This document shows positions 13,597 to 49,553 of a stretch of DNA of 64,000 nucleotides, in pieces. Source of the stretch: Spirochaetales bacterium (lineage in GTDB: Bacteria; Spirochaetota; Spirochaetia; JABEVK01); assembly GCA_037142615.1 (NCBI GenBank), contig JBAXAI010000006.1:32001-96000 (forward strand). Reading direction: 5' to 3'. Below the pieces are notes generated by a model, which saw only the letters and a program-made list of their open reading frames with translations, did not search any database and was not told where the DNA came from. Within the stretch, counting starts at the first letter, position 1; each line of letters opens with the position of its first letter. Made by a program: the position numbers and the translations under genes.

Positions 13597-13603
13597 AAAG
13601 GCC

Positions 13604-14833: not shown

Positions 14834-14891
14834 CGAACTCTCCTCCCCGCCCAAGCGGGACGTTTCAGTTTCAGTATAGGTGAGGGAATCC

Positions 14892-23357: not shown

Positions 23358-24853
23358 GAAGCGTCTCCGGCTAGGCCCAGTGCGGCCCGCATGATGATGT
23401 CCGCCGGAACGTGCTCGGGTTCGAACTCGCCGGTGATATGGCCGTCGTAGATCGTGAGCACGCGGTTGCTCATGTTGAGCACTTCGGGCAGTTCGGACGA
23501 AATGAGAATGACCGCACCCCCCTTCTCGGCGATTTCTTTCATCAGCACGTAGATTTCGTACTTGGCGCCGACGTCGATTCCCTTGGTCGGTTCGTCCATG
23601 ATGAAGATACTGGGCCCGATTTCGAGCCACCGGCCCACGATGCACTTCTGCTGATTACCACCCGACAGGTTCTTGATGGCCACCCTGGTGTTGGGAGTCT
23701 TGACGCGCAGCGATTGAACCTGCCGCGCGCCGATGCCCCTTTCGAGTGACTTGCGGATGAACCCGAACCGCGTGAAGCGTTCGAGCGAGGCCATCGAGAT
23801 GTTTTGCTCCACCGAGAAGGGCAACACGAGGCCCTGCAGCTTTCGGTCCTCGGGGATGAGCCCAAGCCCGGCATCTTTGGCTTGCTTGGGGTTGTGGATG
23901 GTCACGGGCTTGCCGTTGATGGTGGTGGTGTGGCCTCGGACCCGGTCTGCGCCGAAAATGGCGCGCACGATTTCGGTGCGACCGGCGCCCACGAGGCCCA
24001 CGAGGCCGAGAATCTCGCCCTTGCGAAGTCGGAAGTTGACGTCGTGCAACTTGCGGGTATTGAGCCCCTTCACTTCCATGAGGGTTTCCCCCACGTTGCG
24101 CGAACGCTGCGGGTACTCGTTCTCGATGGTACGTCCGACCATCTTGGTGATGAGCTCGTCGCGGGTGAACTCGCTCTTGGGTTTGGTGTCGATGACATTG
24201 CCGTCGCGCATGACCGTGACGATGTCGCAGAAGTCAAAGATTTCTTCCAGTTTATGGCTGATGTAGATGATGGAGATGCCGCGGGCTTTGAGCTGGTGGA
24301 TGATTTTGACCAGCAGGGTCATTTCCTCGTTGGTCAGGCTCGTGCTGGGCTCATCCATGATGATGAGCTTGGACTGGAACGAGAGCGCCTTGGAAATCTC
24401 GACCATCTGCTTGGTCGAGACGCTCAGTTCTGAAACGAGCTTGGTCGTACTGACCTTGCAGCCGATGCTGTCGAGCAACTCGCGGGCCTTGGCGTGGGTG
24501 CCGCGCATGCCTTTCATTTCTTTGAAACGGCCGAGGAAGATGTTCTCGCCGACGCTCATGGCGCTCACCAGGTTGAGTTCCTGGTAGATGATGGCCAAGC
24601 CCCGGTGCATGGACTCGTGGGGGGTTGTGGTTTCGATGGTCTGGCCATCGAAAATGATGGTCCCGGTGTCTTTTTTGTAGACGCCGGAGAGGATTTTCAT
24701 TAGGGTGGATTTGCCGGCACCATTTTCGCCGACCACGCCGTGTACGGTGCCGCGCTGAACATCAATGGAGACGCCGTTTAGGGCCCGGACGCCCGGGAAT
24801 GACTTGGTGACGTCCCTGATGGACAAAATGTAATCGGTGGTTGGTGTGTCCAT
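23354..24853 (-). CDS. Monosaccharide ABC transporter ATP-binding protein (RbsA/MglA type)
   Basis: GENGAGKST, two ABC domains, LSGGNQQK, DEPTKGIDVGAK. Confidence 0.95.
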   Translation of the reverse strand: MDTPTTDYILSIRDVTKSFPGVRALNGVSIDVQRGTVHGVVGENGAGKSTLMKILSGVYKKDTGTIIFDGQTIETTTPHESMHRGLAIIYQELNLVSAMSVGENIFLGRFKEMKGMRGTHAKARELLDSIGCKVSTTKLVSELSVSTKQMVEISKALSFQSKLIIMDEPSTSLTNEEMTLLVKIIHQLKARGISIIYISHKLEEIFDFCDIVTVMRDGNVIDTKPKSEFTRDELITKMVGRTIENEYPQRSRNVGETLMEVKGLNTRKLHDVNFRLRKGEILGLVGLVGAGRTEIVRAIFGADRVRGHTTTINGKPVTIHNPKQAKDAGLGLIPEDRKLQGLVLPFSVEQNISMASLERFTRFGFIRKSLERGIGARQVQSLRVKTPNTRVAIKNLSGGNQQKCIVGRWLEIGPSIFIMDEPTKGIDVGAKYEIYVLMKEIAEKGGAVILISSELPEVLNMSNRVLTIYDGHITGEFEPEHVPADIIMRAALGLAGDAS

Positions 24854-24883
24854 AAGTCCTTACCTGCAGTGGATTCGATACCG

Positions 24884-24921
24884 AAAAAGAAGGCCCGCCC
24901 CACCTTGCGGCGGAACGGGCC
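24884..24921 (-). terminator. Hairpin plus U-tract after the substrate-binding gene
   Basis: GGCCCGTTCCGCC-GCAA-GGTGGGGCGGGCC followed by TTCTTTTT on the minus strand. Confidence 0.7.
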
Positions 24922-24937
24922 CGGTCTCAACGACCTT

Positions 24938-25879
24938 CTACCACTGGGGCAGCGGGTAGTTGTTGACGGTGGTCTTGTCGTAGATGATCTGGGGGATGAC
25001 GTTGAAGGGAGTAACCTTCTTGCCAGCCAGAACATCCTTGGCGAGGCTCAGTTCCTTCTTCGCCATGGCGGTGAAGTCCTGAGCAATCGACACGGCCTGA
25101 TCGCCGCTCTTGACCTGAACGTAGCCGGCCTTGTTGCCGTCAACGCCCACGATGAACAGGTTCTTCAACCCGGCAGCCTTGGCAGCCTGGATGACGCCCG
25201 TGGCACCGTTGTCCCAATGCACGAACACGCCTTGGATCTTGTCACCGTACTTGACGATGTCGTCTTCCATGATGGCCTGAGCTTGGTCGGTCGCCCACTG
25301 CTGGCAAGCCTTGAAGTCCAGAACGGTGATCTTCGAGCCCTTGATGCCCTTGTCGCCGTTGAAGCCGTCGTGGCGGCTCAGCTGAGCGTTGTGGCCGGCC
25401 TGACCGCCGATTTCGACAATCGTGGCACCCTTGGGGAAGGCCTTGATCATCTGCTGAGCGGCCAGCTGACCACCGAGCACGTCGTCGCTCGAAGCGGCAA
25501 AGTCACGGTATTGCACGTCGGTGCCGACGAGTTCAGACGAGAACATACCGACGACGACCTTGGCATCGTGAGCCTTCTTGAGGGCGGGGACGATGGCATG
25601 GATGTCGTTCGGGTTGACGAAGATCGCCTTGAAGCCCTGGGCGATACAAGTCGTCACGATCTGCGATTCGGCCTGGGTATCACCCTTGGCGTCGAACGTG
25701 GATACGTCGAAACCGTAGTCAGGACCATACTTGACGAATTCCTTCGCCGAGAAGGCCTGCGACTCATTGGCCTGATTGGACACAATGAACGCGACTTTGA
25801 CGTTAGCAGCCGACGCGCCCATTGCGAGTCCAACCATCAGCACGAGCCCGATAGCCAATGCCTTGGAAAACCTTACCAT
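24938..25879 (-). CDS. Monosaccharide ABC transporter substrate-binding protein (RbsB-like)
   Basis: Signal peptide (ASA-A), periplasmic-binding-protein type I motifs (R..GF, IVGVDG); GGAGG RBS. Confidence 0.9.
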   Translation of the reverse strand: MVRFSKALAIGLVLMVGLAMGASAANVKVAFIVSNQANESQAFSAKEFVKYGPDYGFDVSTFDAKGDTQAESQIVTTCIAQGFKAIFVNPNDIHAIVPALKKAHDAKVVVGMFSSELVGTDVQYRDFAASSDDVLGGQLAAQQMIKAFPKGATIVEIGGQAGHNAQLSRHDGFNGDKGIKGSKITVLDFKACQQWATDQAQAIMEDDIVKYGDKIQGVFVHWDNGATGVIQAAKAAGLKNLFIVGVDGNKAGYVQVKSGDQAVSIAQDFTAMAKKELSLAKDVLAGKKVTPFNVIPQIIYDKTTVNNYPLPQW

Positions 25880-25957
25880 AGAATACCTCCATGAAAACAT
25901 TCAGCGAAGCACAAAAGCGCCCGCAATTCTCTAGATCCTCAGCCCAAAACAGTCACA

Positions 25958-27599: not shown

Positions 27600-27643
27600 A
27601 GTGTCATCGTAAGGGCATTTTCGAGCAAGCGAAACGCCCAAAG

Positions 27644-27671
27644 ACTGCCCGAAAGGTGGACAAAACTGAAC
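27644..27671 (-). promoter_or_regulatory. Putative AraC binding site upstream of the GMC gene
   Basis: GTTCAGTTTTGTCCACCTTTCGGGCAGT, 24/28 identical to the 28535 site, 60 nt upstream of -10 TACGAT. Confidence 0.7.
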
Positions 27672-27694
27672 AAGGCCCGGCTATACTGGCCGGT

Positions 27695-28519: not shown

Positions 28520-28534
28520 AGTGAAAAACCGGGA

Positions 28535-28562
28535 GTTCAGTTCTGCCCACCTTCCGGCCAGT
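28535..28562 (+). promoter_or_regulatory. Putative AraC binding site upstream of the pflD-like gene
   Basis: GTTCAGTTCTGCCCACCTTCCGGCCAGT, 59 nt upstream of -10 TAGTCT (28594-28599); weak -35 as expected for an activated promoter. Confidence 0.7.
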
Positions 28563-28606
28563 TCTCTGCGTTTTCATCCGGGCACGCCGGGTTTAGTCTT
28601 ATCCCT

Positions 28607-30976
28607 ATGAAGACACCCGCGTCGTTCCCCATCCCCGGCCTTACGCTGCGCATCGCGTCGCTCAAAGCCAAAATGCAGGCCGAGCCCCGCTACCTGTCGC
28701 TCGAGCAGGCGCTCCTCGTGACCAAGACCTACCAGGCCAACGAGGGGGCTTCGATGGCCCGCAAACGGGCGCTGTCGCTGGCGGCGGCCTTGAGGGAAAT
28801 CGCCATTGCCATCGATCCCGAAGAGCTGATCGTGGGCAACCGGACGGCCGGGGTGCGCGCCGGAGTGGTCTTCCCCGAAGCAGGAATCTCGTGGATCGAC
28901 AAGGAGCTGGAAACCCTGCCGACGCGCCCGCAAGACAAGTTCGGCGTGCGCCGTGAGGATATCGATGACTTTCGCCGCGTCGTTGCCCCCTATTGGAAAG
29001 GCAAGTCGCTCGAGGACACCATCCGCGCCGAAGCCGGAACCATCGTCGACGCCATCGGCCGGGTGGTGAAAATCAACCAGAAGGACCACGCGCAAGGGCA
29101 CATTTGCCCCGATACCGAAAAGTGGCTCCGCGTGGGGGCTGGCGGCCTTCAGCGCGAGGCCGAAGCCAAACTCGCCAGCGAAACCGACCCCGAGAAGCGC
29201 GAGTTTTATGAGTCGGTGGTCACGGTCCTGTCGGCGTCCCGCGATTTCATGCTCCGCTACGCCGTGCTGGCCGAAGAACTGGGCCTGCGCGAAGTGGCGC
29301 GGATTTGCCGCAAACTGGCGGCAGACGCGGGCTCGTGCGGCGCCGAAACCTTCCACGAGGCGTTGCAGGCGCTGTGGTTCCTGTTCGTCGTGCTGCACCT
29401 GGAAAGCAACGCCTCGTCGTTTTCGCCCGGGCGCGCCGACCAGTACCTGCTGCCGTACTTTCTGGCCGACAAAAAGGCCGGTCGCCTCGACGACTCGCGC
29501 GCCTTGGAGCTCATTGAGGCACTCTGGCTCAAGTTCAACCAGATCGTCTACCTGCGCAACTCGCACAGCGCGTCGTTCTTCGCCGGCTTCCCCATCGGAT
29601 TCAACGTGGCCTTGGGCGGACGAAACGCCGATGGCTCCGACGCGACCAATGAGCTGAGTTACCTGTTCCTGCAAGCGCAGGGTGCATTGGGGTTGCCGCA
29701 GCCCAACCTGTCGGCCCGGTTGCACGAAGGATCGCCGCAAGAGTTCCTCGACGCCTGCTCGACCGTGGTGGGCCGAGGCAGCGGCATGCCGCAGGTGTTC
29801 AACGACGAGAGCATTGTTCCCGCGCTGACAGCCCAGGGGATCAGCCGCGACGACGCCGAAAACTACGCCATCGTGGGTTGCGTGGAGCTGACCACTCACG
29901 GTAACAACTTGGGTTGGAGCGACGCGGCCATGTTCAACCTGCCCAAGGCTCTGGAATTGGCGCTCAACAACGGCGTCGACCTGATCACCGGCCAGCATCT
30001 GTCGCCCGGAACCGGAGCCCTGAGCGACTTCGCCACCTATCAGGACGTTGAAAAGGCTTTTGCCGCGCAGATCGACTACTTTTTTGAGGGGATGCTCGAG
30101 GCTTGTGTCAAAGTCGAGGCCGTCCACAAGCGGCTGATGCCGACGGCGTTCCTTTCGGCGGTGATCAACGACTGCCTCGACAAGGGGCTCGACGTGGTCG
30201 CCGGAGGGGCCCACTACAACCTTTCGGGCATTCAAGCCATCCAGATGGCCAACGTGGCCGACTCGCTGGCGGCCCTCAAAGTGCTGGTGTACGGAGACGG
30301 CGGCGAGAAGGGGCACAGACCTCTCGACCGGAGGGTTCTGCTCCAGGCCCTGCGCGACAACTTTGAGGGCAACGACGAGCTTCGCAAAACCCTGCTCGCC
30401 TCGCCCAAGTACGGCAACGACATCGCCTGGGTCGATGAGCTGGCCAACCAGTGGGTCACGTACTTTGCCAAAAAGTTCGACGGACGGACCAACTTCCGCG
30501 GAGGGCGCTACCACACTGGCATGTACACTGTCAGCGCCCACGTGCCGATGGGGGCCAACGTCGGTGCCTCGCCCGACGGCCGCCTGGCGAAAACCCCGCT
30601 CGCCGATGGGGGCATGTCGGCCGTGTACGGGCGCGACCTCAAGGGCCCGACCGCCGTGCTCAAGTCGGTATCGCGCATCAATTCGGCGCTCGGGAGCAAC
30701 GGGACGCTGCTGAACCTCAAGTTTCTGCCGAGTTTCTTTTCGACCTTTGAGGGCATTCAGAAGTTTTCGAGCCTGCTCAAGGCTTTTGTGCGGCTGCGGA
30801 TCAACCACGCGCAGTTCAACGTCGTCCGGGGGGAAGACCTGCTCGACGCACAGCTGCATCCCGAAAATCACCGGGGGCTGACCATCCGGGTGGCCGGCTA
30901 CACGGCCTACTTCACCGAGTTGGCCACCGACCTGCAGAACGAGATCATCGCCCGCACCGCCTATGATCATCTTTGA
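28607..30976 (+). CDS. pflD: Glycyl radical enzyme, PflD-like (1,5-anhydrohexitol-6-phosphate isomerase subfamily)
   Basis: Cys loop GCVE, Gly loop RVAGY; PflD-type segments TRPQDKF, INQKDHAQGHI, ESNASS, FAGFP, YTVSAHVP, SNGTLLNLKF. Confidence 0.85.
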   Translation: MKTPASFPIPGLTLRIASLKAKMQAEPRYLSLEQALLVTKTYQANEGASMARKRALSLAAALREIAIAIDPEELIVGNRTAGVRAGVVFPEAGISWIDKELETLPTRPQDKFGVRREDIDDFRRVVAPYWKGKSLEDTIRAEAGTIVDAIGRVVKINQKDHAQGHICPDTEKWLRVGAGGLQREAEAKLASETDPEKREFYESVVTVLSASRDFMLRYAVLAEELGLREVARICRKLAADAGSCGAETFHEALQALWFLFVVLHLESNASSFSPGRADQYLLPYFLADKKAGRLDDSRALELIEALWLKFNQIVYLRNSHSASFFAGFPIGFNVALGGRNADGSDATNELSYLFLQAQGALGLPQPNLSARLHEGSPQEFLDACSTVVGRGSGMPQVFNDESIVPALTAQGISRDDAENYAIVGCVELTTHGNNLGWSDAAMFNLPKALELALNNGVDLITGQHLSPGTGALSDFATYQDVEKAFAAQIDYFFEGMLEACVKVEAVHKRLMPTAFLSAVINDCLDKGLDVVAGGAHYNLSGIQAIQMANVADSLAALKVLVYGDGGEKGHRPLDRRVLLQALRDNFEGNDELRKTLLASPKYGNDIAWVDELANQWVTYFAKKFDGRTNFRGGRYHTGMYTVSAHVPMGANVGASPDGRLAKTPLADGGMSAVYGRDLKGPTAVLKSVSRINSALGSNGTLLNLKFLPSFFSTFEGIQKFSSLLKAFVRLRINHAQFNVVRGEDLLDAQLHPENHRGLTIRVAGYTAYFTELATDLQNEIIARTAYDHL

Positions 30977-33635
30977 CCTGCAGCGGTTCTCGGTGCACGA
31001 CGGGCCGGGAATCCGCACCACGGTTTTTTTGAAGGGTTGCCCCCTGCGTTGCCTGTGGTGCCAGAATCCCGAGGGCCTGGAGTTCGGGTTGGGCGATGCG
31101 GGAGACGCCGGAAAGGTGCGCGAAATTTCGCCCGCCGACTTGGCCGAGGAACTTTTGGCCGACGAAGTGTTCTTTGAAACCTCGGGCGGTGGCGTCACGT
31201 TTTCGGGTGGCGAACCGCTGGCGCAGGTCGACGAGCTGATCCAGACGGCCCGGCTTTTGCGGTCGCGCGGCATCCACGTAGCGGTTGAGACCTCGCTCTA
31301 CGTTCCGGCCGCCTTTGTGCGGAAAGTCTTGGGCGAGGTCGACCTGATACACGCTGACCTCAAGGCGTGGAACCCGGACGACCACAAGGCCTGGACTGGT
31401 CGGAGCAACACGCGGATTTTGGCAAACTTCCGGTTGGTAGCCGACGCGGCGCAGCAGGGCGGCCCCACGTTGATCGTTCGCACCCCGTTGGTCCCCGAAC
31501 ATACCGCCTCCGAGGCCAATCTGGGTCAGCTCCGCGAGTTCTTGTCGGGCTGGTCGCCGGCACCGGCGTGGGAACTGATGGACTTCAATGCGCTCGCCCG
31601 ATCGAAGTATCAGGGGATGGGCCGTAACAACTACCCGTTCGAGCACCTGAGCACCGGCTTGGGGGCCGAGCAGTTGCAGCACTTTCACGTGGTCGCCGGT
31701 CTGGCGGACCCACCCGTCAAGGAGACTTCCACCATGGTCAACTGCATCCGCGACTTTGTCACCCGCGCCCAAGCCGGGAACACGGTGTACATCACCGACG
31801 TTCGGCAGGCGTTTGAACGCCTTTCGGCGAGCGATTCGTTCCGGTTCGGTTTGGACCTCACCCTTCCCGACAAGAGCCATCGGAAGTTCGTGTTGCGGCT
31901 TCCCCACTTTGCGACCGCCGACGACACCCCCGAGCGGACCTTCGTGGTCGAGTACTTCCTGGCCGAGCTGTACAACCGGCTTTCGGCGCTGGGACCCCGC
32001 CGACTCGAGTTCCTTGCCGAGGAAGGCGTGGCAGAGGCTCCTTGGTTGCACCGGCGTTTCGAAAAGGACTTTGGTCTGTCGCTGAGCCGCAAAGACCGGC
32101 GAGGCTACGGCCGCGCGGTCAACGTGCTCGAACGCATGGTCGACTCGCTCGAGCACACGCACGGTTCGCGCATGACGTGCTCGTTCATGGTGGGCCCGGT
32201 TCAGGCGGCGAGCCCAACGGAGTCCGCGCCTCGGGGTGCGGTGGCAACAATGGCCAAGCGCGCCCTCGAAGGTGTCGAGGGCCGCACGCTCCTGGGCATC
32301 GACGTGGGGGGCAGCGACATCAAGCTGGCCTTGTCGCTGAAGGGGCGCTTGGCCGCGCTCAAGGAATACGACTGGTTCCCGGCCAAGTTCACCCGAATCA
32401 GCTCGCTGACCGATCCGTTGGAAGACCTCGTCAAACTGATGACGTGGCAGGCGATGGCACTGGGTGCGGCGGGAAAGCCCGACCCGGAGCTCGAGGCGGC
32501 TCTCGCACCTGCCTTCGCTCACGGAGCCGACGACGCAGCTTTGCAAAAGGCCCTGCGAGCGGCGGCCCCGCTGGTGGCCCGGCATCCGGCGTTTCAGCTC
32601 GACGGCATCGGGCACTCGTTCCCGGATGTCGTGGTGCGCGATAAAATTGTCGGCGGCGAGGTGTACAAAACGCGGGGCATCCGCGACAACGGCGCGCTCG
32701 ACTACGAAGCCGAGTTTCAGGGCCTGACCAACCTCGACGTCCGGTTGCGGCCGTACGTGAGGCCTGAGGGCCTCATCGCCACGGTCAACGACGGTCCGAT
32801 GGCCGCGTTCACGGCGCTGGTGGAGCAAGGGGCCGAGAATCCGCGCAGCGTGGCCGACGGGATCTTTGCGCACACGCTGGGCACCGAGTTGGGCACCGGT
32901 TGGGTCACCGAAAACGGCGTCATCCCCGACGTGCCGCTCGAAGTGTACAACTTCATCATCGACCTGGGCTCGTACCCCGAGCGCGAGTTTGCGTGCGACG
33001 ATCCGCGCAGCAACCGCAACTTCAACACCGACTTGCCCGGAACCCTCCAAAAGTACACCAGCCAGAGTGGGGCGTTCCGGCTGGCCCTCAAGTACTTCCC
33101 GGGCGAACGAAAAGACCTGATGGCCGAACTCGCCGAAAAGGGTTTCGTGGTGCCCGTCGGCGCCTCCGGGATGAAGATTCCCCCGGCGTTCCGGATTCCC
33201 ACCGAACCCAAGGACTTGCGCAAGCCCTTCCTCGAGTACCTGATGAGCCTGCCCGACCGCGACGGGCACCCGACGGTCGAAAAGATCTTCACCGAAATCG
33301 GGGAGTTCTTGGCGGTGGCGACGCTGGAATGCAATCAGATTCTCGGCCCGGCAGCCCAATCGCGCATCCTGTTCGGTCGCATGGTGAAAAACGCTGCGTG
33401 CTTCCGGTTGATGCAGAAGGGGGCCCGGTCGATCAGCAAGACCATCGAACTCGTGCCAGCCGCCGACGACTTGGCCGTGACCAAGCTGATGAAAGAGCTC
33501 AAGGCCGATCCGGACCACACCGTCGCGCAGTTTGCGCAAGCCGTCGGCGCCATCTACTACGCGGCGAGCCGACTTGGGGTTGAACAGGGCGCGCAATTGG
33601 TTCTTAATGAAAGTGATCATGACAAAACGCCTTGA
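30963..33635 (+). CDS. Glycyl-radical activating enzyme (radical SAM) fused in frame to an atypical ROK/sugar-kinase domain
   Basis: N-terminal QRFSVHDGPGIRTTVFLKGCPLRCLWCQNPE, GGVTFSGGEP; C-terminal GIDVGGSDIK, VNDGPMAA, HTLGTELGTG; internal AAGGAG RBS plus ATG at 31734. Confidence 0.8.
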   Translation: MIIFDLQRFSVHDGPGIRTTVFLKGCPLRCLWCQNPEGLEFGLGDAGDAGKVREISPADLAEELLADEVFFETSGGGVTFSGGEPLAQVDELIQTARLLRSRGIHVAVETSLYVPAAFVRKVLGEVDLIHADLKAWNPDDHKAWTGRSNTRILANFRLVADAAQQGGPTLIVRTPLVPEHTASEANLGQLREFLSGWSPAPAWELMDFNALARSKYQGMGRNNYPFEHLSTGLGAEQLQHFHVVAGLADPPVKETSTMVNCIRDFVTRAQAGNTVYITDVRQAFERLSASDSFRFGLDLTLPDKSHRKFVLRLPHFATADDTPERTFVVEYFLAELYNRLSALGPRRLEFLAEEGVAEAPWLHRRFEKDFGLSLSRKDRRGYGRAVNVLERMVDSLEHTHGSRMTCSFMVGPVQAASPTESAPRGAVATMAKRALEGVEGRTLLGIDVGGSDIKLALSLKGRLAALKEYDWFPAKFTRISSLTDPLEDLVKLMTWQAMALGAAGKPDPELEAALAPAFAHGADDAALQKALRAAAPLVARHPAFQLDGIGHSFPDVVVRDKIVGGEVYKTRGIRDNGALDYEAEFQGLTNLDVRLRPYVRPEGLIATVNDGPMAAFTALVEQGAENPRSVADGIFAHTLGTELGTGWVTENGVIPDVPLEVYNFIIDLGSYPEREFACDDPRSNRNFNTDLPGTLQKYTSQSGAFRLALKYFPGERKDLMAELAEKGFVVPVGASGMKIPPAFRIPTEPKDLRKPFLEYLMSLPDRDGHPTVEKIFTEIGEFLAVATLECNQILGPAAQSRILFGRMVKNAACFRLMQKGARSISKTIELVPAADDLAVTKLMKELKADPDHTVAQFAQAVGAIYYAASRLGVEQGAQLVLNESDHDKTP

Positions 33636-34374
33636 CCAAATACTGAAACTTCTTTCCGAACAACACAAAATAACTGTCATTCAGCTATCGGAAGAGCTTC
33701 ATGTGTCACCCGCTACCATCCGGCAGGATCTCACGGTGCTGGAGCAGGAAGGGCTTTTGGTGCGAACCCACGGCGGCGCTGAGCTCCGTGAGACCGACGA
33801 TTTGGCGCACCGCATGGCCATCAACTACGAGGACAAGCTCAAAATCGCGCGCCGCGCCGTCGAGTTCGTCAACGAGGGCGACACGATTTTCGTCGAGTCA
33901 GGCTCGACCAACGCCATCTTCGTCAAGGAACTGACCTCGCGCAAACGGGTCACGGTGATCACGTCGAACGCCTTCATCGCTCGTACGGTCGACCAGTCGC
34001 GCGGCGGCAGTGTCATCCTCATTGGCGGCGTCTACCAGCGCGAAAGCGAAAGCATAGTCGGCAACCTGGCCAAGTCGAACATCGACCAGTTGAACTTCAA
34101 ACAGGCCTTTTTGGGCGTCGATGGCTTTACCGTCGAAACCGGCTTTACCGGCCGCGACATGATGCGCGCCGAGATCGTGGCCTACATCGTGAAAAAGGCC
34201 CGCGAAGTGTTCATCCTGACCGACTCGTCGAAGTTCGGGCAGATCCACCTTTCGCAATACTGTCGGCTCGAAGACGTCGACCGCGTCGTGACCGACCAGG
34301 GGCTGGGCGCCGAGTTTCAGCAGGCGCTCGCCGGTCTGGTCGATCTCATCGTGGTCCCCAAAGACGCTTCCTAG
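33619..34374 (+). CDS. DeoR/GlpR-family transcriptional regulator
   Basis: HTH 'VSPATIRQDL...RTHGGA', 'TIFVESGST', 'VITS', 'DSSKFG'. Confidence 0.95.
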   Translation: MTKRLDQILKLLSEQHKITVIQLSEELHVSPATIRQDLTVLEQEGLLVRTHGGAELRETDDLAHRMAINYEDKLKIARRAVEFVNEGDTIFVESGSTNAIFVKELTSRKRVTVITSNAFIARTVDQSRGGSVILIGGVYQRESESIVGNLAKSNIDQLNFKQAFLGVDGFTVETGFTGRDMMRAEIVAYIVKKAREVFILTDSSKFGQIHLSQYCRLEDVDRVVTDQGLGAEFQQALAGLVDLIVVPKDAS

Positions 34375-35495
34375 AGTTCAGCGACCTTCACCCAACGTTG
34401 TTGGTTCACCGACGCATAGGCCGCGTCCATGACCAGGTTGTTGAGAACCCCGTCGCGCAGCCCTGGGCTCGGTTCCCGCTTGTCGAGCACAGCCTTGAGG
34501 AACTGGTACTGGTTTTCGGCGTGGGTACGCTCCCAGCCGATGATGGCGCGGGCCGGCGGCACCAACGCCCCTTCGTAGGTCTGAATCGTCTCCAAACGCG
34601 TCCAGCCCGACTCGCCCGACTTGCGGGTGGCGTCGAAATAGTACAGCCAGTTGGCGTCCATCAGATCGAAGCGAAGCGCGCCCTTGGACCCTTCAATAGT
34701 CAGACGCAGGTCGTCGGCCGAACCGGTGGCAAACCGCGAAACGGTCAGCGTGCCGGTGGCGCCGTTCTTCATCGTCGCCTGAAGCCAGGCCGCGTCGTCC
34801 ACATCGACCGGGCCCATTTCGGACGAACCCTTGGCCACCGGACGTTCCTTGATGTAGGTCCTGGTCGTCGCCGAAATTTGGTCAAACTCACCCACCAAGA
34901 AGCGCACCAGGTCGATGATGTGCGACCCGAGGTCCATGATGGCGCCGCCCCCTGAGTCCTTCATGCGCATGCGCCAACTCAGCGGACGCGAAGCATCCTG
35001 ATACCCGGTATGGAGATACTCAGCATGATAGCGGTACACGTCGCCGATGGCGCCGGCTTCGACGAGCTTGCGCGCCTTTTGGATGGCGGGAACAAACCGG
35101 TAGTTGAAGGTCATCCCCAGGGTACCCTTCGACGCCGCAGCAACCGCCAGAAGTTCCTTGGCCTGCGATCCCGAAAGCGCCAGCGGCTTTTCGCAATAGA
35201 TGCTCTTGCCGGCCTTGAGGACGAGAAGAGCGGCTTCGGCGTGCGCGTCGTTGGGGAGCACGCAATCGATGACATCGACCGCAGGATCGTTCACCAGGTC
35301 GGTGAGGTTGGTGTAGGCCTTTGCAAAGCCACCGTCGGTTTGCGCCTCATGTGCGCTCTTTTCGGACCGGGTACACACCGCCTCGAGCCGGTAGCGGGGA
35401 AAGCTGGGGTAGTAACTGGGAATGCTGCGGTAGGCCAGGGTATGGAGTTTGCCTATTCCCCCATAGCCCAACATTCCGATGCCGAGAATTGCCAT
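34371..35495 (-). CDS. Gfo/Idh/MocA-family NAD(P)-dependent oxidoreductase
   Basis: GYGGIG Rossmann motif, CEKP, GGAIMDLGSHIID. Confidence 0.92.
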   Translation of the reverse strand: MAILGIGMLGYGGIGKLHTLAYRSIPSYYPSFPRYRLEAVCTRSEKSAHEAQTDGGFAKAYTNLTDLVNDPAVDVIDCVLPNDAHAEAALLVLKAGKSIYCEKPLALSGSQAKELLAVAAASKGTLGMTFNYRFVPAIQKARKLVEAGAIGDVYRYHAEYLHTGYQDASRPLSWRMRMKDSGGGAIMDLGSHIIDLVRFLVGEFDQISATTRTYIKERPVAKGSSEMGPVDVDDAAWLQATMKNGATGTLTVSRFATGSADDLRLTIEGSKGALRFDLMDANWLYYFDATRKSGESGWTRLETIQTYEGALVPPARAIIGWERTHAENQYQFLKAVLDKREPSPGLRDGVLNNLVMDAAYASVNQQRWVKVAEL

Positions 35496-37392: not shown

Positions 37393-38876
37393 GCACGAAG
37401 TTCGACCTTGTAATCATCGGCTCCGGCTTGGGCGGCTCGGCTGCGGCCAAGGTGCTGCAAGCGACGGGCAAGTCGATTCTCATCGTGGAGCGCGGCGACT
37501 ACGTGAAGCAAGAGAAAGAAAACTGGGACGTCAACGAGGTGTCGGTAAAGCGGCGCTACGATTCGCCCGAAAAGTGGCTCGACGGCAAGGGCAAGGAGTT
37601 CAGCCCGCGCACCTATTACAACGTGGGTGGCAGCACCAAGTTCTATGGGGGTACCGCGCTCCGGTTCCGCGAGACCGACTTTCAGGAAAGAGCGGTGGGC
37701 GAAGGCCGCACGGTAGCCTGGCCGTTCGCCTATGCCGAGCTGGCCCCGTGGTACGAAAAGGCCGAGGAACTGCTCGAGGTGCACGGGCAGACCGGCGAAG
37801 ACCCTACCGAGCCCCCGAGGGGCGAGTTCCCCTACCCGGCGCTGGTACATGAGCCGACACTGGCGACGCTGGCCGAAAAGCTGAGCCAGCAGGGGCTGCA
37901 CCCCATCCATTTGCCCATCGCCATCGATCAAGGAGTCAAGGGCAAATGCATCAAAGGGAGTCCCTGCGACGGGTTCCCCTGTATGTACCGGGCCAAGGGA
38001 GACGCCGAGAACCGAATTTTGCGGCCCTTGCTCCTCAAAAAGCACCCCAACGTCACCCTGTGGACGAACGCCTTGGTCGACCGCCTCGAAACCTCGCCCG
38101 ATGGCAAACGGGTGGTCGCCGCGCACGTCGTGAAAAACGGCGAGGTGGTGGTGGTCGAAGGCGAGCATTTTATCGTGGCGGCGGGCGCGGTCAACTCGGC
38201 GGCGCTGCTGCTGAAGTCCAAAAGCCCCGCGCACCCCAAAGGGTTGGCGAACTCTTCCGACCAGGTGGGGCGCAACTTCATGTCGCACAACAACACGGTG
38301 CTTTTGGCCCTGCATCCGTTCCGCAAGAACCCGACCAAGTTCCAAAAGACCCTGACCATCCACGATTTTTACCAGCAAGGCACTTTTCAAGGGCGCGGCA
38401 AAGTTCAGCCCGAAATGCTGCAAGGCAAAAAAGACTGGGCGATGCGGACGTTCCGCAAGTTCATCGCGGCCCGAAGCGTCGACTTCTGGGTGATGTCAGA
38501 AGACCTTCCCACCCCCGACAACCGGGTCACGGTTGATGAAGCGGGGCGCATCCATCTGGCTCGCCGCGCCACCAATACCCTGGCGCACCAAGTGCTGATC
38601 TGGAAGGCGATGAACGCCTTGAGCAAAGCCGGCCTGCCGGTCTGTTTTGTCGACGAGCGTGGCACCTCCGCCATTCAGCACCAGTGCGGCACCGTTCGTT
38701 TTGGCAACGATCCGAAAACTTCGGTGCTGGACCAGTGGTGCCGCACCCACGAGGTCGCCAACCTGTACGTGATGGATGCCAGCTTCTTCCCGTCGTCGGC
38801 AGCCGTGAATCCCGCGCTGACCGTGCTCGCTCAGACCTTGCGGGCCGCCGAGCACCTCAAAGCCTCGTTGCTATAG
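37389..38876 (+). CDS. GMC-family flavin oxidoreductase
   Basis: GTG start overlapping the kinase stop; DLVIIGSGLGG, VGGSTKFYG, CxxxxxCDGFPC, HQCGTVRFG, NPALTV. Confidence 0.9.
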   Translation: MSTKFDLVIIGSGLGGSAAAKVLQATGKSILIVERGDYVKQEKENWDVNEVSVKRRYDSPEKWLDGKGKEFSPRTYYNVGGSTKFYGGTALRFRETDFQERAVGEGRTVAWPFAYAELAPWYEKAEELLEVHGQTGEDPTEPPRGEFPYPALVHEPTLATLAEKLSQQGLHPIHLPIAIDQGVKGKCIKGSPCDGFPCMYRAKGDAENRILRPLLLKKHPNVTLWTNALVDRLETSPDGKRVVAAHVVKNGEVVVVEGEHFIVAAGAVNSAALLLKSKSPAHPKGLANSSDQVGRNFMSHNNTVLLALHPFRKNPTKFQKTLTIHDFYQQGTFQGRGKVQPEMLQGKKDWAMRTFRKFIAARSVDFWVMSEDLPTPDNRVTVDEAGRIHLARRATNTLAHQVLIWKAMNALSKAGLPVCFVDERGTSAIQHQCGTVRFGNDPKTSVLDQWCRTHEVANLYVMDASFFPSSAAVNPALTVLAQTLRAAEHLKASLL

Positions 38877-41258
38877 GGTGTGTTCCGTCCGGGCAATGAT
38901 ATCGTCTTGGGTATCGGGCGCCAGGTCGCGGAAGAACGCCGAATAGCCAGCCACCCGGACGACGAGATCGCGGTACTTCTCGGGGTCTTTTTTGGCGGCC
39001 AGCAGAGTCTCGCGCGACACAATGTTGTACTGCACGTGCCAACCCTTCAGGTCGTCAAAGAACGTGCGGATCATCGCCGCGAGCTTGGCCTTGTCGGCCG
39101 GGGTTTCGAGGGTCTTGGGCGAGAGTTTCTGGTTGAGCAGGATTCCACCGAAAATGCGCTCGGCCGGCAGTTTGCCGATTGACTGGAACACCGCCGTCGG
39201 ACCGAGCAGGTCTGTCCCCGAAGAGGGAGAGCAGCCTTCGGCTAGCGGCGTGCCGGCGTGGCGACCATCGGGCGTGGCGCCCACTTCCGACCCCGAAGGC
39301 ACGTTGGACGAAATGCTCGACGTACCCGGATAGTAGCCGCCGCCGCTGGGCCCACGTCCGTAGCGCGTGTTGTGCAGCTTTTCGATTTCGTCGGTGAAGG
39401 CAGCGTAGGCCTCGACCACCAACTGGTCCACTTCGTCGTCGTCGTTGCCGAACTTCGGCGCGTTGTTGAGCAGGCGCAGGCGCAGGATTTCGCCTTGCGG
39501 CCCGGCAAAGTCATTCGCCAGCGCGTCGAGCAGCTCCTGCCGACCGATCACGCCGTCTTCGAACACCAGCTTTTTGAGCGCAACCAGCGAATTGCCCAGG
39601 TTGGCAATGCCCACCTGCAGGCCCGAGACCCAGTCGTACACCGCGCCGCCTTCCTTGAGGTGCTTGCCGCGGCCAATGCAGTCGTCGGTAAAGGTGGAGC
39701 ACAACACGTCGGGAACCAGGTCTTCGAGGGCGGTGTCGACCGCGACGTCGATGGCGACACTGGCACGGGCATAAAACTGAACTTGCTTGGTCCACGCCGC
39801 CATGAGCGCGCGGAAGTCCTGGAAGGTCGTGAGCGAGCCCGTGCCGGGCAAAAAGGCCTTGCCCGACGCGGGGTCCTGACCGTCTCTCAGGGTTAAAATC
39901 AGCACGCGCATAAAATTAAGGAAGCTCATACCGGTGGTGCGGTAGCCCCATTTGCCCGGAACCGCGACCTCGATGCAACCGATGGCCGAATAGTCGCGCG
40001 CGTCTTCCAGGCTGACGCCCAAGCGGAGCATGCCGGGAATCACCACTTCGTCGTTGTTGAACGCCGGCATGCCAAAACCCTTTTCGATCACGCTGACGGC
40101 GCGGGCCAGGAACTCGGGGCTCATGCCCGAATGGTAGCGCACCGAAAGGTTGGGCTGGGTGAGTTTCATTTCGCCGACCGACTCGAGGATGAGCGAACTG
40201 AGGGCGTTGGTGGCATCGTGGCCCTCGCGGTTGACGCCGCCGATGGTGACGTTCTGGTACAGTGGCCCACCACCCGAGGTGCGGGTGTGACTCGACGAGC
40301 GAACTTTCTTGACGCAGGTGAGCTTGATCCACGTGCTGCACAGCAGCTCCTTCGCGGTTTCGGTGTCGATGGCACCGGTCCGCAGATCGTCGTCGTAGTA
40401 ACGGCCTAGGTACTGGTCGAGGCGGCCAAACGACAGTGAGTGACCGTTCGATTCAACTTGCAGCACCAACTGAAGGAACACGCTGAACTGCAACGCTTCG
40501 CGGAAGCTTTGGGGGCGCTTGGTCGCGATCGCCGCGCAGACTTGGGCCATCAGGGCGAGTTCAGCAGCGCGTTTCGGGTCCATTTCGGCTTTGGCTTGCG
40601 CGTCTGCCAAGTCGGCGTAGCGCTGAATGTAGAGGGTCAAGCCTTCCAGAACGTCGAGCATCGCGAGGTACAACTGGCGTTTCTTGAGGTCAAAGAACGA
40701 AGTGGGGTCGAGCGACGCCAGCGCGGCTTTCACCAAGGAGGTGTAGCCCGCAACGCCCAGGTCGAGCGCCTTGGTCAGGTTGATCGCCACGTGGCCGTCA
40801 CCCGAGGTCATGTTCCCCTCGGCCTTGATGATCTTGGTGGCGTGCAGTTCTTCCAGTTCGGGCGAGAGCAGGGCGTGGGCGTGCTCCTGAAGAGTCTTGC
40901 CTCGCCAGTAGTGGCAGATGGCCTTCAGCTCGGCCTTGACCTCGGGGGTGGCAAAGTAGGCTTCGGCGGTGCGCTGATCGATCTCATCGATTTCTTTTTC
41001 GATCCAACCGATGGCGTATTCCGGGAAGATGGCGGCGGCTTTGGGCCGGGAGGCCGTGTTGCCGAGCACCAGATCCTCGGGTTCGATGTAGAGGGTCATC
41101 TCGGCCAGGGTTTGCTTGAGGGCCAAACCGCGACGGCGGACAACGGGCAAAGGTTCGTTTTCGCGGTACACCCGCGTATAGATGCGGGCGCGTTCGGGGC
41201 AGATCGTCGCTTTGGTCGACAGCATCTTGTCTTTGGCACGTTGCATTCGCTCGGTCAT
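38871..41258 (-). CDS. ybiW: Glycyl radical enzyme, YbiW/PflF-like (1,5-anhydroglucitol-6-phosphate isomerase subfamily)
   Basis: IIKAEGNMTSGD.H, ESNGHS, PLYQNVTIGG, GCIE.AV.GKWGYR.TGMSF, DWVSGLQVG, GTSSIS, RVAGYSAFF, IIARTEH match E. coli YbiW segments as I recall them. Confidence 0.9.
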   Translation of the reverse strand: MTERMQRAKDKMLSTKATICPERARIYTRVYRENEPLPVVRRRGLALKQTLAEMTLYIEPEDLVLGNTASRPKAAAIFPEYAIGWIEKEIDEIDQRTAEAYFATPEVKAELKAICHYWRGKTLQEHAHALLSPELEELHATKIIKAEGNMTSGDGHVAINLTKALDLGVAGYTSLVKAALASLDPTSFFDLKKRQLYLAMLDVLEGLTLYIQRYADLADAQAKAEMDPKRAAELALMAQVCAAIATKRPQSFREALQFSVFLQLVLQVESNGHSLSFGRLDQYLGRYYDDDLRTGAIDTETAKELLCSTWIKLTCVKKVRSSSHTRTSGGGPLYQNVTIGGVNREGHDATNALSSLILESVGEMKLTQPNLSVRYHSGMSPEFLARAVSVIEKGFGMPAFNNDEVVIPGMLRLGVSLEDARDYSAIGCIEVAVPGKWGYRTTGMSFLNFMRVLILTLRDGQDPASGKAFLPGTGSLTTFQDFRALMAAWTKQVQFYARASVAIDVAVDTALEDLVPDVLCSTFTDDCIGRGKHLKEGGAVYDWVSGLQVGIANLGNSLVALKKLVFEDGVIGRQELLDALANDFAGPQGEILRLRLLNNAPKFGNDDDEVDQLVVEAYAAFTDEIEKLHNTRYGRGPSGGGYYPGTSSISSNVPSGSEVGATPDGRHAGTPLAEGCSPSSGTDLLGPTAVFQSIGKLPAERIFGGILLNQKLSPKTLETPADKAKLAAMIRTFFDDLKGWHVQYNIVSRETLLAAKKDPEKYRDLVVRVAGYSAFFRDLAPDTQDDIIARTEHTL

Positions 41259-41262
41259 GGGG

Positions 41263-42174: not shown

Positions 42175-42180
42175 ACCCCC

Positions 42181-42230
42181 AGAATAGTCATTAACTTTCA
42201 TATTGTCAATAAAAGACTTTCATGTGAAAA
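42181..42230 (-). promoter_or_regulatory. Promoter TTGACA-N17-TATTCT with CTTTCATGTGAAAA box
   Basis: -35 at 42209-42204, -10 at 42186-42181; boxes at 42195 and 42217. Confidence 0.7.
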
Positions 42231-47856: not shown

Positions 47857-47869
47857 ACTCGACCTACCG

Positions 47870-49507: not shown

Positions 49508-49522
49508 CAAGGGCCTCCCCAC

Positions 49523-49553
49523 AAAAAAAGTCCCGGGGCGTCTGCCCCGGGAC
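49523..49553 (-). terminator. Intrinsic terminator/stabilising hairpin after the SBP gene
   Basis: GTCCCGGGGC-AGAC-GCCCCGGGAC followed by T7 on the minus strand. Confidence 0.8.

What the first reader, a model, noticed from the sequence alone, without database searches (positions are those of the whole stretch)
30963..33635. GRE activase fused to an atypical ROK-like kinase, with an internal RBS and ATG at the junction
Seen: a ~257-aa short activase (CPLRCLWC, no ferredoxin insert) reads without a stop into a ~630-aa protein that has an unrecognised ~180-aa domain plus a ROK fold (GIDVGGSDIK, NDG, TLGTELGTG) lacking the Cys/Zn motif. AAGGAG at 31719-31724 precedes an in-frame ATG at 31734. 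Inference: either a recent fusion by stop-codon loss, or a gene giving two products (fusion plus free kinase). A fusion would tie substrate phosphorylation to radical activation. I know of no such architecture.
Basis: partly seen in the sequence, partly recalled or inferred. Interest (0 to 1): 0.75.

Follow-up and report, generated by a model that had tools for sequence, protein, structure and literature searches.

The report
Radical-enzyme activase fused to ROK-like protein
A real gene joins the activating enzyme of an oxygen-sensitive sugar-cleaving radical enzyme to a large, uncharacterised sugar-kinase-like protein that in almost all other bacteria is the separate next gene, which points to an unstudied third component of this pathway.

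Summary
ORF 30963-33635 (890 aa) reads from a short glycyl-radical-enzyme (GRE) activase straight into a 633-aa protein, with AAGGAG 9 nt before the in-frame ATG at 31734. It is not an assembly error: a contig from an independent study matches across the junction, a sister lineage is also fused, and both halves are under purifying selection.

The C-terminal part ("X615") belongs to an unnamed family of about 600-625 aa with no Pfam or NCBIfam hit. Its AlphaFold model (pLDDT 92) matches ROK sugar kinases best. X615 is normally the separate third gene of a cassette made of a PflD-like GRE, an activase and X615: 47 of 60 loci with enough upstream DNA. Stop and start often overlap as ATGA. Here a 2-nt loss at that overlap fused the two genes. 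Fusion arose at least three times but is rare: 3 of 119 assessable loci.

Best reading, inferred and not shown: X615 is the pathway's sugar kinase, and the fusion is a tolerated by-product of translational coupling.

The parts
28607..30976 (+). GRE1, a PflD-like glycyl radical enzyme of 789 aa. Its last 14 nt overlap the activase start.
   Evidence: Pfam PFL-like and Gly_radical. TIGR01774 scores 711 bits (cut-off 678); the PflD equivalog NF007437 scores 689, below its cut-off of 1109. The nearest solved structures are E. coli PflD, 8yjo and 8id0, at 592 and 582 bits. The Cys loop VGCVEL and the RVAGY glycine motif align.
30963..33635 (+). Fused ORF of 890 aa: activase joined to X615.
   Evidence: Single open frame. 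An identical junction is found in a contig from an independent study. dN/dS against the fused sister (L086) is 0.22 for the activase part and 0.17 for the X615 part.
30963..31655 (+). Activase module, residues 1-231. It is a radical SAM enzyme with the CPLRCLWC motif at 31038-31061 and is the short form without the ferredoxin-like insert.
   Evidence: TIGR02494 scores 208.5 bits, above its cut-off of 174.35. C26, C30 and C33 and the GGE motif are invariant in the 26-activase alignment.
31656..31733 (+). C-terminal tail of the activase, which now serves as the linker (residues 232-257).
   Evidence: It aligns with the tail of the separate activase of L002, which ends ...PPKETSTS followed by a stop. 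In the full-length model, pLDDT is 53-71 over residues about 211-260 and below 50 at 249-255.
31719..31724 (+). AAGGAG, the ribosome-binding site of the formerly separate X615 gene, 9 nt before the ATG.
   Evidence: The same hexamer lies 11 nt before the ATG of the unfused gene in L002 and L085, and 9 nt before it in the fused sister L086. Similar sites precede other genes of the window.
31734..31736 (+). In-frame ATG that corresponds to the start codon of stand-alone X615 proteins.
   Evidence: Stand-alone homologues P0003-P0008 begin at this position in the alignments.
31734..32273 (+). N-terminal alpha/beta domain of X615, about 180 aa, with no recognised family.
   Evidence: No Pfam or NCBIfam hit. 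It is modelled with confidence (pLDDT mostly above 90). Invariant residues include Y80, N81, R122, G126, N130, V131 and R134. Its fold was not searched on its own.
32274..33632 (+). ROK-like / hexokinase-like (ASKHA) domain of X615, carrying DxGG, NDG and TLGTELGTG.
   Evidence: The best Foldseek PDB matches are ROK glucokinase 2qm1 (E 7e-12), Mlc, NanK and other ROK kinases, with target-normalised TM 0.5-0.73. hhalign against 9 ROK proteins gives E 2e-4 and probability 46%. The Atlas finds ROK-named clusters as structural neighbours of homologue P0012.
33607..34374 (+). DeoR-family regulator that overlaps the 3' end of the fused ORF. Its start is either 33607 or 33619.
   Evidence: Pfam DeoRC and HTH_DeoR. 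It follows X615 in L002, L003 and L086, among others.
23354..25900 (-). Sugar ABC transporter: ATPase (23354-24853) and RbsB-like binding protein (24938-25900). This is context for the cassette.
   Evidence: NCBIfam RbsB/XylF-like hits below cut-off. The same transporter genes flank the cassette in 33-40 of the 80 loci.
34371..35495 (-). Gfo/Idh/MocA oxidoreductase (context).
   Evidence: Pfam hit. The best NCBIfam match is levoglucosan dehydrogenase at 262 bits, below its cut-off of 650.
38871..42201 (-). Second GRE, a YbiW-type enzyme (38871-41273), with its own long-form activase (41263-42201). Context.
   Evidence: 939 bits to E. coli YbiW, 8id7. Radical_SAM and Fer4_12 for the activase.

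Best explanation
The ORF is a genuine, expressed-type gene in which a short GRE activase is joined to "X615". X615 is a member of an uncharacterised family of about 615 aa, built from a novel N-terminal domain of about 180 aa and a zinc-less ROK-like ASKHA domain.

In other bacteria X615 is the separate gene that follows a PflD-like GRE and its activase, usually beside a sugar ABC transporter and an NAD(P) dehydrogenase. Its start codon often overlaps the activase stop as ATGA. In this lineage a 2-nt loss in the spacer between the ribosome-binding site and the ATG put the two frames in register. The fusion has been kept under purifying selection since it split from a sister lineage.

The ribosome-binding site and ATG survive inside the ORF, so the locus probably makes both the 890-aa fusion and a free 633-aa X615.

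Most likely X615 is the pathway's ATP-dependent sugar kinase. It would phosphorylate the imported sugar, plausibly a 1,5-anhydrohexitol such as 1,5-anhydromannitol, to give the 6-phosphate that the PflD-like GRE cleaves. This would replace the PTS step of the E. coli PflD pathway. On this reading the fusion is a tolerated consequence of tight translational coupling and not a mechanistic necessity.

Shown: the fusion, its origin, its conservation, the cassette and the fold. Inferred: kinase activity, the substrate and the two products.
For: The fusion is real.
- Single ORF.
- A contig from an independent study is identical across 31661-31793.
- The sister protein P0002 (locus L086) is also fused and shows the same synteny: GRE1 85%, DeoR 92%, GFO 91% and RPE-like 95% identical.
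- P0001 and P0002 are sisters in the tree (SH-aLRT 99, quick tree).
- dN/dS is 0.22 (activase) and 0.17 (X615) at dS of about 1.
- The window protein keeps every invariant column of the 71-sequence family alignment.

Origin of the fusion.
- Two same-genus relatives have AAGGAG, 11 nt, then ATGA with a stop/start overlap (L002, L085).
- The window and L086 have AAGGAG, 9 nt, then an in-frame ATG.
- Of 53 activase-X615 pairs, 17 overlap (11 by -4 nt, which is an ATGA overlap in the two junctions read) and 24 lie 0-30 nt apart.

The family and its cassette.
- 1260 hits at E <= 0.001 in one database. 409 clusters at 50% identity in another. Every source name among the 120 hits listed is 'hypothetical protein'.
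- An activase lies directly upstream in 57 of 73 loci.
- GRE1-like, activase and X615 are colinear in 47 of 60 loci, and 7 more loci hold a GRE1-like gene in another arrangement.
- The typical neighbourhood is a binding protein, ABC ATPase and permeases, then GRE, activase and X615, then a dehydrogenase, with no other kinase.

Kinase-like nature.
- The AlphaFold2 model has pLDDT 92.4 and pTM 0.92.
- The top Foldseek hits are ROK sugar kinases and ROK regulators, followed by hexokinases.
- hhalign aligns NDGPMAAF with DNDANAQAF (the catalytic Asp; its role is recalled from ROK literature), TLGTELGTG with TISTQIGAG, and LEVYN with GEIGH.
- The many invariant polar residues fit an enzyme.

X615 is not strictly tied to a GRE.
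- A glucokinase gene sits directly upstream of X615 in L066, L073 and L078.
- No GRE1 orthologue was found in 5 of 5 such genomes. Only 27-34% identical GREs appeared, in 2 of them, and these are possibly incomplete metagenome-assembled genomes.
- This fits a metabolic enzyme better than a GRE-specific accessory factor.

Pathway frame.
- GRE1 is nearest to PflD, and GRE2 in the window is a YbiW orthologue.
- PflD and YbiW cleave 1,5-anhydromannitol-6-P and 1,5-anhydroglucitol-6-P, and in E. coli the 6-phosphate is made by a PTS (passages read in PMC13450708, and PMC12441222).
Against: - No assay exists, and the substrate is a guess.
- GRE1 scores 689 bits on the PflD equivalog model, below its cut-off of 1109. 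It need not act on anhydromannitol-6-P, or on any phosphorylated sugar.
- X615 fails the Pfam ROK model. The window protein has no hit, and only 2 of 71 family members hit it, at E 0.079.
- X615 lacks the ROK zinc motif. Where hhalign places the ROK GGG adenosine motif, X615 has FGRxVK. ATP use is therefore not assured.
- The window's genome encodes PTS enzyme I and a canonical ROK kinase 2.8 kb downstream. A dedicated extra kinase is not strictly required here.
- At least three independent activase-X615 fusions exist. One of them (L162) trims both termini and leaves no separate start. This hints at a closer link to the activase than a pathway kinase would need.
- The two fused halves evolve faster than the flanking genes: dN/dS 0.17-0.22 against 0.04-0.10.
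- The independent junction check rests on one 151-nt contig at depth 6.
Confidence: 0.55

Rival explanations
1. X615 is a partner of the activase and not a pathway kinase. On this reading it is an ATP- or sugar-binding ASKHA module that assists or gates installation of the glycyl radical, for example by allowing activation only when substrate is present or by holding the GRE glycine loop for the activase. The fusions would then record a physical complex.
For: - X615 almost always lies directly after the activase: 57 of 73 loci. The spacing is often overlapping or within 30 nt.
- Independent fusions in at least three lineages have four different junctions.
- L162 is a tight fusion without an internal start.
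- The ROK fold also serves as a sugar sensor in regulators such as Mlc, which is among the top structural hits.
- The weak sub-threshold sequence hits go to the HgdC and BcrAD_BadFG 'activator' ATPases.
Against: - X615 homologues occur beside a glucokinase with no activase or GRE1 orthologue found, and in G027 with no GRE1-like match at E <= 1e-100.
- The catalytic-type residues of sugar kinases are invariant.
- X615 has only one invariant Cys, so it is not an HgdC-like iron-sulfur electron donor.
- Fusions are rare, 3 of 119 assessable loci, and they are mechanically easy at ATGA overlaps.
- In the full-length model the two modules are joined by a low-confidence linker, and pTM falls from 0.92 to 0.74.
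Confidence: 0.17
2. X615 is a kinase or phosphotransferase that acts at another step. It might phosphorylate the GRE product (for example 1-deoxyfructose) or a different sugar of the locus, or it might use a donor other than ATP.
For: - It has the same fold and motifs as above.
- GRE1 is not a PflD equivalog, so its substrate may be unphosphorylated.
- The FGRxVK motif with invariant Arg and Lys replaces the ROK GGG motif.
- X615 pairs with a glucokinase in three Planctomycetota loci.
Against: - The nearest characterised GREs act on 6-phosphates.
- The typical cassette has no other kinase to make such a substrate.
Confidence: 0.2
3. The fusion is an artefact or a decaying gene, caused by an assembly indel or a recent inactivating frameshift.
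For: - A 2-nt difference is enough to produce it.
- The genome is assembled from metagenomes, in 76 contigs.
- Only contigs, not raw reads, could be laid.
- Both halves evolve faster than their neighbours.
Against: - An independent study's contig has the same junction.
- The same frame relation and the same 9-nt spacer occur in the sister lineage L086, which is 75% identical.
- dN/dS is 0.17-0.22, well below 1.
- All invariant family residues are kept.
- The site is not a homopolymer.
Confidence: 0.03

Closest known systems
E. coli PflD/PflC and YbiW/YbiY 'anhydroglycolysis' systems (GRE C-O lyases acting on 1,5-anhydromannitol-6-P and 1,5-anhydroglucitol-6-P)
   Same: GRE1 is closest to PflD among solved structures (592 bits), with the Cys loop and glycine motif conserved. 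The window also holds a YbiW orthologue at 939 bits. Each GRE is followed by its own activase. The surrounding genes are sugar-related.
   Different: GRE1 is below the PflD equivalog cut-off. Uptake genes here encode an ABC transporter instead of the PTS described for E. coli. An extra gene of about 615 aa follows the activase, and here it is fused to it. In the passages and term counts I saw of the 2026 GRE review, no fused activase or kinase partner appears: 'fusion', 'fused' and 'ROK' each occur 0 times. The primary paper (JACS 2024, doi 10.1021/jacs.4c07718) is not held. It, or its supplements, may describe kinase-containing variants.
ROK-family sugar kinases (for example Enterococcus glucokinase 2qm1, the N-acetylmannosamine kinases, Streptomyces glucokinase 3vgk)
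   Same: They are the best structural matches, with Foldseek E from 7e-12 to 1e-9 and target TM 0.6-0.73. The DxGG phosphate-1 motif, the N-D catalytic pair, the glycine-rich phosphate-2 motif and the Glu of the ExGH motif all align.
   Different: X615 has no Pfam ROK hit. Sequence identity to the structural matches is 11-15%. The CxCGxxGC zinc motif is missing, the His of ExGH is Asn, and the GGG adenosine motif is replaced by FGRxVK. X615 is about twice the size, with an N-terminal domain of about 180 aa and helical inserts.
PFL-activating enzyme PflA and other short-form GRE activases
   Same: The N-terminal 230 aa carry the CxxxCxxC and GGE motifs and lack the ferredoxin-like insert. TIGR02493 PflA scores 143 bits and TIGR02494 scores 208.5, which is over its cut-off.
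   Different: The module carries 633 aa of C-terminal extension. Sequence-wise it is closer to the PFL2-type activases than to PflA.
HgdC and the BcrAD_BadFG ATPase 'activators' of 2-hydroxyacyl-CoA dehydratases
   Same: They belong to the ASKHA superfamily. They give the best, though sub-threshold, sequence-profile hits: 1hux at E 0.17, and PF01869 in 12 of 71 family members with best E 0.004.
   Different: X615 has no conserved pair of Cys ligands for a bridging iron-sulfur cluster; only C556 is invariant. The structural search ranks ROK kinases first.

Membership tests
GRE-activating enzyme (radical SAM, TIGR02494 PFLE_PFLC) | Family HMM score above the curated cut-off | tested here: met
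   208.5 bits against a cut-off of 174.35.
GRE-activating enzyme (radical SAM, TIGR02494 PFLE_PFLC) | CxxxCxxC cluster motif and glycine-rich SAM-binding motif (feature list recalled from the literature) | tested here: met
   C26, C30, C33 and G82-G83-E84 are present. All but E84 are listed as invariant among the 26 aligned activases.
GRE-activating enzyme (radical SAM, TIGR02494 PFLE_PFLC) | Encoded next to a GRE | tested here: met
   Its start overlaps the end of GRE1 by 14 nt.
ROK family (PF00480) | Pfam model hit at the gathering threshold | tested here: not met
   The window protein has no hit at E <= 0.1. Only 2 of 71 family members hit, with best E 0.079.
ROK family (PF00480) | Zinc-binding Cys motif CxCGxxGC (recalled as typical of ROK proteins) | tested here: not met
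   hhalign places FNTDLPGTLQKY opposite the CPCGNKGC segment of the ROK proteins.
ROK family (PF00480) | ROK / hexokinase-type two-lobed fold | tested here: met
   The top Foldseek PDB hits are all ROK kinases or ROK regulators, with probability 1.00 and E down to 7e-12. The Atlas structural neighbours of homologue P0012 agree.
ASKHA sugar kinases | Phosphate-1 DxGG, catalytic Asp and phosphate-2 glycine-rich motifs (recalled definitions) | tested here: met
   D190-x-G192-G193, N352-D353-G354 and T381-G383-T384-E385-G387-G389 are invariant in 71 sequences. They align to the ROK motifs.
ASKHA sugar kinases | Adenosine-binding GGG-type motif | tested here: inconclusive
   The aligned segment is ILFGRMVK, with F547, G548, R549 and K552 invariant.
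ASKHA sugar kinases | Phosphotransfer activity on a sugar | not testable with these tools
   This needs an enzyme assay.
PflD-type 1,5-anhydromannitol-6-P lyase (for the neighbouring GRE1) | Equivalog HMM NF007437 above its cut-off | tested here: not met
   689 bits against a cut-off of 1109.
PflD-type 1,5-anhydromannitol-6-P lyase (for the neighbouring GRE1) | Glycine radical motif and Cys-x-Glu loop | tested here: met
   RVAGY and GCVE align with PflD 8yjo.
PflD-type 1,5-anhydromannitol-6-P lyase (for the neighbouring GRE1) | Conserved phosphate-binding pocket for the 6-phosphate | not tested
   The residues are not named in the passages I could read, and no coordinates were available.

The most novel reading that the evidence does not exclude
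X615 may be a dedicated third component of a widespread GRE system that works with the activase. It would be a nucleotide- and sugar-binding ROK-like module that gates or assists glycyl-radical installation, possibly in addition to phosphorylating the substrate. The repeated activase-X615 fusions, one of them without any internal start, would then be Rosetta-stone records of a physical complex. This would be the first ASKHA-type accessory factor of a GRE activase.
Probability: 0.13. Interest if true: 0.85.

Novelty: new variant of a known kind. Interest (0 to 1): 0.57.

Why it matters
GREs related to PflD and YbiW were assigned a function only recently, as anhydro-sugar phosphate lyases fed by a PTS in E. 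coli.

This locus shows that in Spirochaetota, Chloroflexota, Planctomycetota, Bacillota, Myxococcota and others, a PflD-like GRE travels with an ABC transporter and a conserved, unnamed ROK-like protein of about 615 aa. No curated family covers that protein.

If it is the missing kinase, it defines a PTS-independent version of the pathway and a new zinc-less branch of ROK-like kinases with an extra domain. If it works with the activase, it would be a new kind of GRE accessory factor.

The fused gene gives a natural single-polypeptide construct, and a clear start codon for the free form, with which to test both ideas.

Tried and rejected
Complex prediction of activase and X615. The answer was no verdict: median score 0.20 against a mark of 0.32, runs 0.41, 0.00 and 0.20, and the controls were not folded. 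I do not use it as evidence either way.

Expression. No RNA holder is listed for the stretch, so nothing can be said about expression.

Full-length AlphaFold2 model. pLDDT is 89.3 and pTM 0.74, with a low-confidence linker. No pairwise error map was available, so I draw no conclusion on docking beyond saying that no fixed arrangement is indicated.

X615 as an HgdC-like iron-sulfur electron donor. Rejected. The only support is a sub-threshold hit (E 0.17), and only one Cys is invariant.

The 587-aa ROK-containing ORF at 43130-44893. It is unrelated to X615 (BLASTP E 0.4).

The 454-aa ROK-like ORF of L048. It shows no relation to X615 (hhalign probability 0.3%).

Radical SAM gene next to X615 in G027. 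It is an anaerobic sulfatase maturase type (TIGR03942, 235 bits, below cut-off), not an activase.

'No PTS, hence a kinase is needed' as an argument for this genome. Rejected, because PTS enzyme I is present.

Aldolase for the GRE product. Two FSA/TalC-like genes exist in the genome at about 200 bits, below the cut-off of 246. One lies about 9.6 kb beyond the window's end. This was not pursued.

Promoter and terminator scan of 27400-34600. Nothing above the shuffled expectation.

Literature. Searches for 'glycyl radical' with 'anhydroglucitol', 'anhydromannitol' with 'kinase', pathway names, 'anhydrofructose' with 'glycyl radical', PflD/YbiW/kinase/ABC transporter, kinase and reductase names and 'glycyl radical' with 'ROK family' brought up no paper on this family or this fusion. 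I saw only listings and abstracts, plus passages of PMC13450708 and PMC12441222. The JACS 2024 paper is not held, and supplements are closed.


Full report
**Observation.**
One search lists one open frame at 30963..33635 (+) of 890 aa. One search shows AAGGAG at 31719-31724 and an in-frame ATG at 31734, 9 nt downstream. Residues 1-230 are a GRE-activating radical SAM enzyme. Pfam finds Radical_SAM and Fer4_12, and NCBIfam TIGR02494 scores 208.5 bits against a cut-off of 174.35. An alignment with 25 other activases shows the CxxxCxxC cysteines and the GGE motif in place. The ferredoxin-like insert, present in 23 of the 26, is absent here, in L002 and in L067. Residues 258-890 match no Pfam family, no NCBIfam family and no PDB sequence.

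**Is the junction real?**
One search for public runs and one laying of contigs were allowed. Of the four runs laid, X1 may be the source of this DNA; it spans the whole stretch without a difference. X7 comes from a different study. It has a 151-nt contig (depth 6.1) that covers 31661-31793 with no difference and no gap. X3 and X10 have no contig over the junction. These are contigs, not raw reads, and the independent support is one short contig.

Stronger support comes from relatives. Protein P0002 (854 aa) is 76% identical over the X615 part and is also fused. Its DNA (L086) has the same neighbours as the window: GRE1 85%, DeoR 92%, Gfo/Idh/MocA 91% and RPE-like 95% identical. In a quick maximum-likelihood tree of 59 X615 sequences, P0001 and P0002 are sisters (SH-aLRT 99) inside a clade of unfused proteins. 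The careful tree search did not finish.

Between the window and L086, dS is about 1 for every gene. dN/dS is 0.22 for the activase part and 0.17 for the X615 part, against 0.10 for GRE1 and 0.04-0.07 for the three downstream genes. The fused gene has therefore been maintained by selection, although less tightly than its neighbours.

**How the fusion arose.**
Two genomes of the same genus keep the genes separate.
- In L002 the activase ends ...PPKETSTS followed by a stop, and the DNA reads AAGGAG, 11 nt, then ATGA. The TGA stop overlaps the ATG of the next gene.
- L085 has the same layout.
- The window and L086 both have AAGGAG, 9 nt, then ATG in frame.

A 2-nt shorter spacer in the common ancestor of these two fused genes explains the fusion. 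P0002 later lost about 21 codons of the activase tail.

The internal AAGGAG and ATG are thus the former ribosome-binding site and start codon of X615. Stand-alone homologues begin exactly there. Several other genes of the window use AAGGAG- or GAGGAG-type sites at similar spacing. Internal initiation that gives a free X615 is therefore plausible, but it is not shown.

**What the C-terminal protein is.**
A search with the 633-aa part found 1260 proteins at E <= 0.001. Of the 120 listed, 118 are 447-644 aa long, carry no Pfam domain, and are named 'hypothetical protein' where they are named at all. A profile search of 1.84 billion cluster representatives gave 409 clusters at E <= 0.001 and 172 at E <= 1e-30. 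The family is compact and is spread over many phyla. The record titles name Spirochaetes, Chloroflexi, Planctomycetes, Clostridia, Anaeromyxobacter and Propionivibrio.

An AlphaFold2 model built from 71 sequences is confident, with pLDDT 92.4 and pTM 0.92. Foldseek against the PDB ranks ROK sugar kinases and ROK regulators first: 2qm1 at E 7e-12, then Mlc, NanK, 3vgk and others, with target-normalised TM 0.5-0.73. Hexokinases and glucokinases follow. The ESM Atlas model of homologue P0012 has ROK-labelled clusters of about 460 aa as its nearest named structural neighbours (TM 0.63 by query, 0.82 by target).

Profile-profile alignment to 9 canonical ROK proteins gives E 2e-4 and probability 46%. 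It pairs the following segments:
- NDGPMAAF with DNDANAQAF.
- TLGTELGTG with TISTQIGAG.
- LEVYN with GEIGH.
- FGRMVK with GGGL.

The ROK CxCGxxGC zinc segment has no counterpart. Sequence-only searches stay below threshold: HgdC 1hux at E 0.17 and ROK kinases at E 0.6-3; BcrAD_BadFG in 12, Hydantoinase_A in 3 and ROK in 2 of 71 members. The first 180 residues form a confident alpha/beta domain of no recognised family. I could not search its fold on its own.

**Genomic context.**
Of the 80 genome loci kept from 232, 73 have at least 900 nt upstream of X615, and 57 of those have an activase directly upstream. Of 60 loci with at least 3.3 kb upstream, 47 have GRE1-like (at least 55% identity), activase and X615 in a row. 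Seven hold a GRE1-like gene in another arrangement, and six hold none. Among 53 activase-X615 pairs, 17 overlap (11 by -4 nt, which is an ATGA overlap in the two junctions I read) and 24 are 0-30 nt apart.

The usual neighbourhood is a binding protein, an ABC ATPase and two permeases, then GRE, activase and X615, then a dehydrogenase. The dehydrogenase is shikimate-dehydrogenase-like in 24 loci, and Gfo/Idh/MocA or zinc-ADH in others. No other kinase is present.

GRE1 is closest to E. coli PflD among solved structures but falls below the PflD equivalog cut-off. The window also carries a YbiW orthologue with its own activase.

According to passages of a 2026 review and a 2025 review, PflD and YbiW cleave 1,5-anhydromannitol-6-P and 1,5-anhydroglucitol-6-P. 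In E. coli the phosphate is added by a PTS. A cassette with an ABC transporter needs a cytoplasmic kinase, and X615 is the only kinase-like protein in it. That is the basis of my preferred function. It is an inference.

**Evidence that cuts the other way.**
- X615 is not bound to GREs everywhere. In three Planctomycetota loci it follows a glucokinase gene. In five genomes whose X615 locus lacked a GRE, no GRE1 orthologue was found, only 27-34% identical GREs in two of them; these are possibly incomplete genomes. Among 31 relatives, X615 was found in 4 and a GRE1 orthologue (at least 58% identity) in 4. Three genomes have both. One GRE1-only case sits at a contig edge. This fits a metabolic enzyme.
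- On the other side, fusion with the activase recurs. Besides the window/P0002 clade, there are two more fused forms. P0123 (895 aa) has a long-form activase and is 39% identical overall. L162/P0124 (901 aa) has an X615 part only 28% identical and sits after a GRE that is 54% identical to GRE1. Both have different junctions, and L162 has trimmed termini and no separate start.
- Fusions are nevertheless rare. None of 58 assessable genome loci is fused (22 not assessable). Three of 61 assessable further loci are fused (23 not assessable), and one of those three is the window's own sequence.
- The window's genome has PTS enzyme I and a canonical ROK kinase nearby. The kinase argument is therefore weaker for this particular genome.

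**Verdict.**
The finding is real and more interesting than an ordinary fusion. It exposes an uncharacterised, conserved third gene of a widespread GRE cassette.

I put about 0.55 on the composite reading: a genuine, selected fusion that arose by a 2-nt loss at an ATGA overlap, with X615 as the pathway's sugar kinase. The fusion being real is near 0.95. The kinase-for-substrate role is near 0.5. A role at another step has about 0.2, a role as activase partner about 0.17, and an artefact about 0.03.

In the literature I could search and in the review passages I read, neither this family nor the fused architecture is described.

Noticed in passing
window 38871-42201 (-): A second GRE, a clear YbiW orthologue (939 bits to 8id7), sits with its own long-form activase. 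The window therefore carries both a PflD-like and a YbiW-like system within 13 kb. GMC oxidoreductases (26028-27641 and about 37392-38876), a Gfo/Idh/MocA enzyme, an RPE-like protein and a canonical ROK kinase lie between them.
   Followed up: partly
L019, L025, L051 (genome loci): In these loci a YbiW-like GRE (55-56% identical to GRE2) lies downstream of the GRE1-activase-X615 cassette on the opposite strand (directly after X615 in L019 and L051), and the ORF map shows no activase beside it. One activase and one X615 may serve two GREs there.
   Followed up: no
L066, L073, L078 (Planctomycetota loci): X615 homologues (42-44% identical) lie directly after a glucokinase-family gene (PF02685). 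No GRE or activase is in the locus, and no GRE1 orthologue was found in those genomes.
   Followed up: partly
L161 (metagenome contig): The gene order here is GRE, X615, activase. The GRE is only 28% identical to GRE1, and X615 is 41% identical.
   Followed up: no
window 30963-33635 compared with L086: Both halves of the fused gene evolve two to five times faster at non-synonymous sites than the flanking genes, at equal dS. dN/dS is 0.17-0.22 against 0.04-0.10. Whether unfused pairs of activase and X615 show the same pattern was not checked.
   Followed up: no
window 9567-16037 (-): An alpha-glucan utilisation block lies here: a GH13 alpha-amylase, a maltodextrin-type ABC transporter and a protein with a pullulanase X25 domain. 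It sits a few kb from the anhydro-sugar-like locus. This would fit 1,5-anhydrofructose derived from glucans, but no glucan lyase was found.
   Followed up: no
window 43130-44893 (-) and 45487-49561: A 587-aa ORF has a ROK domain only in residues 265-578. It is probably a ROK regulator whose start is called too far upstream. It is followed by two GH9 glycoside hydrolase genes.
   Followed up: partly
window 53369-54367 (+), and 7 of the 80 loci: HbpS-like / GlcG-type (PF03928) proteins recur next to the GRE cassette. Their function there is unknown.
   Followed up: no
window 998-6342: Three long ORFs (781, 436 and 406 aa) have no Pfam hit at E <= 1e-4.
   Followed up: no
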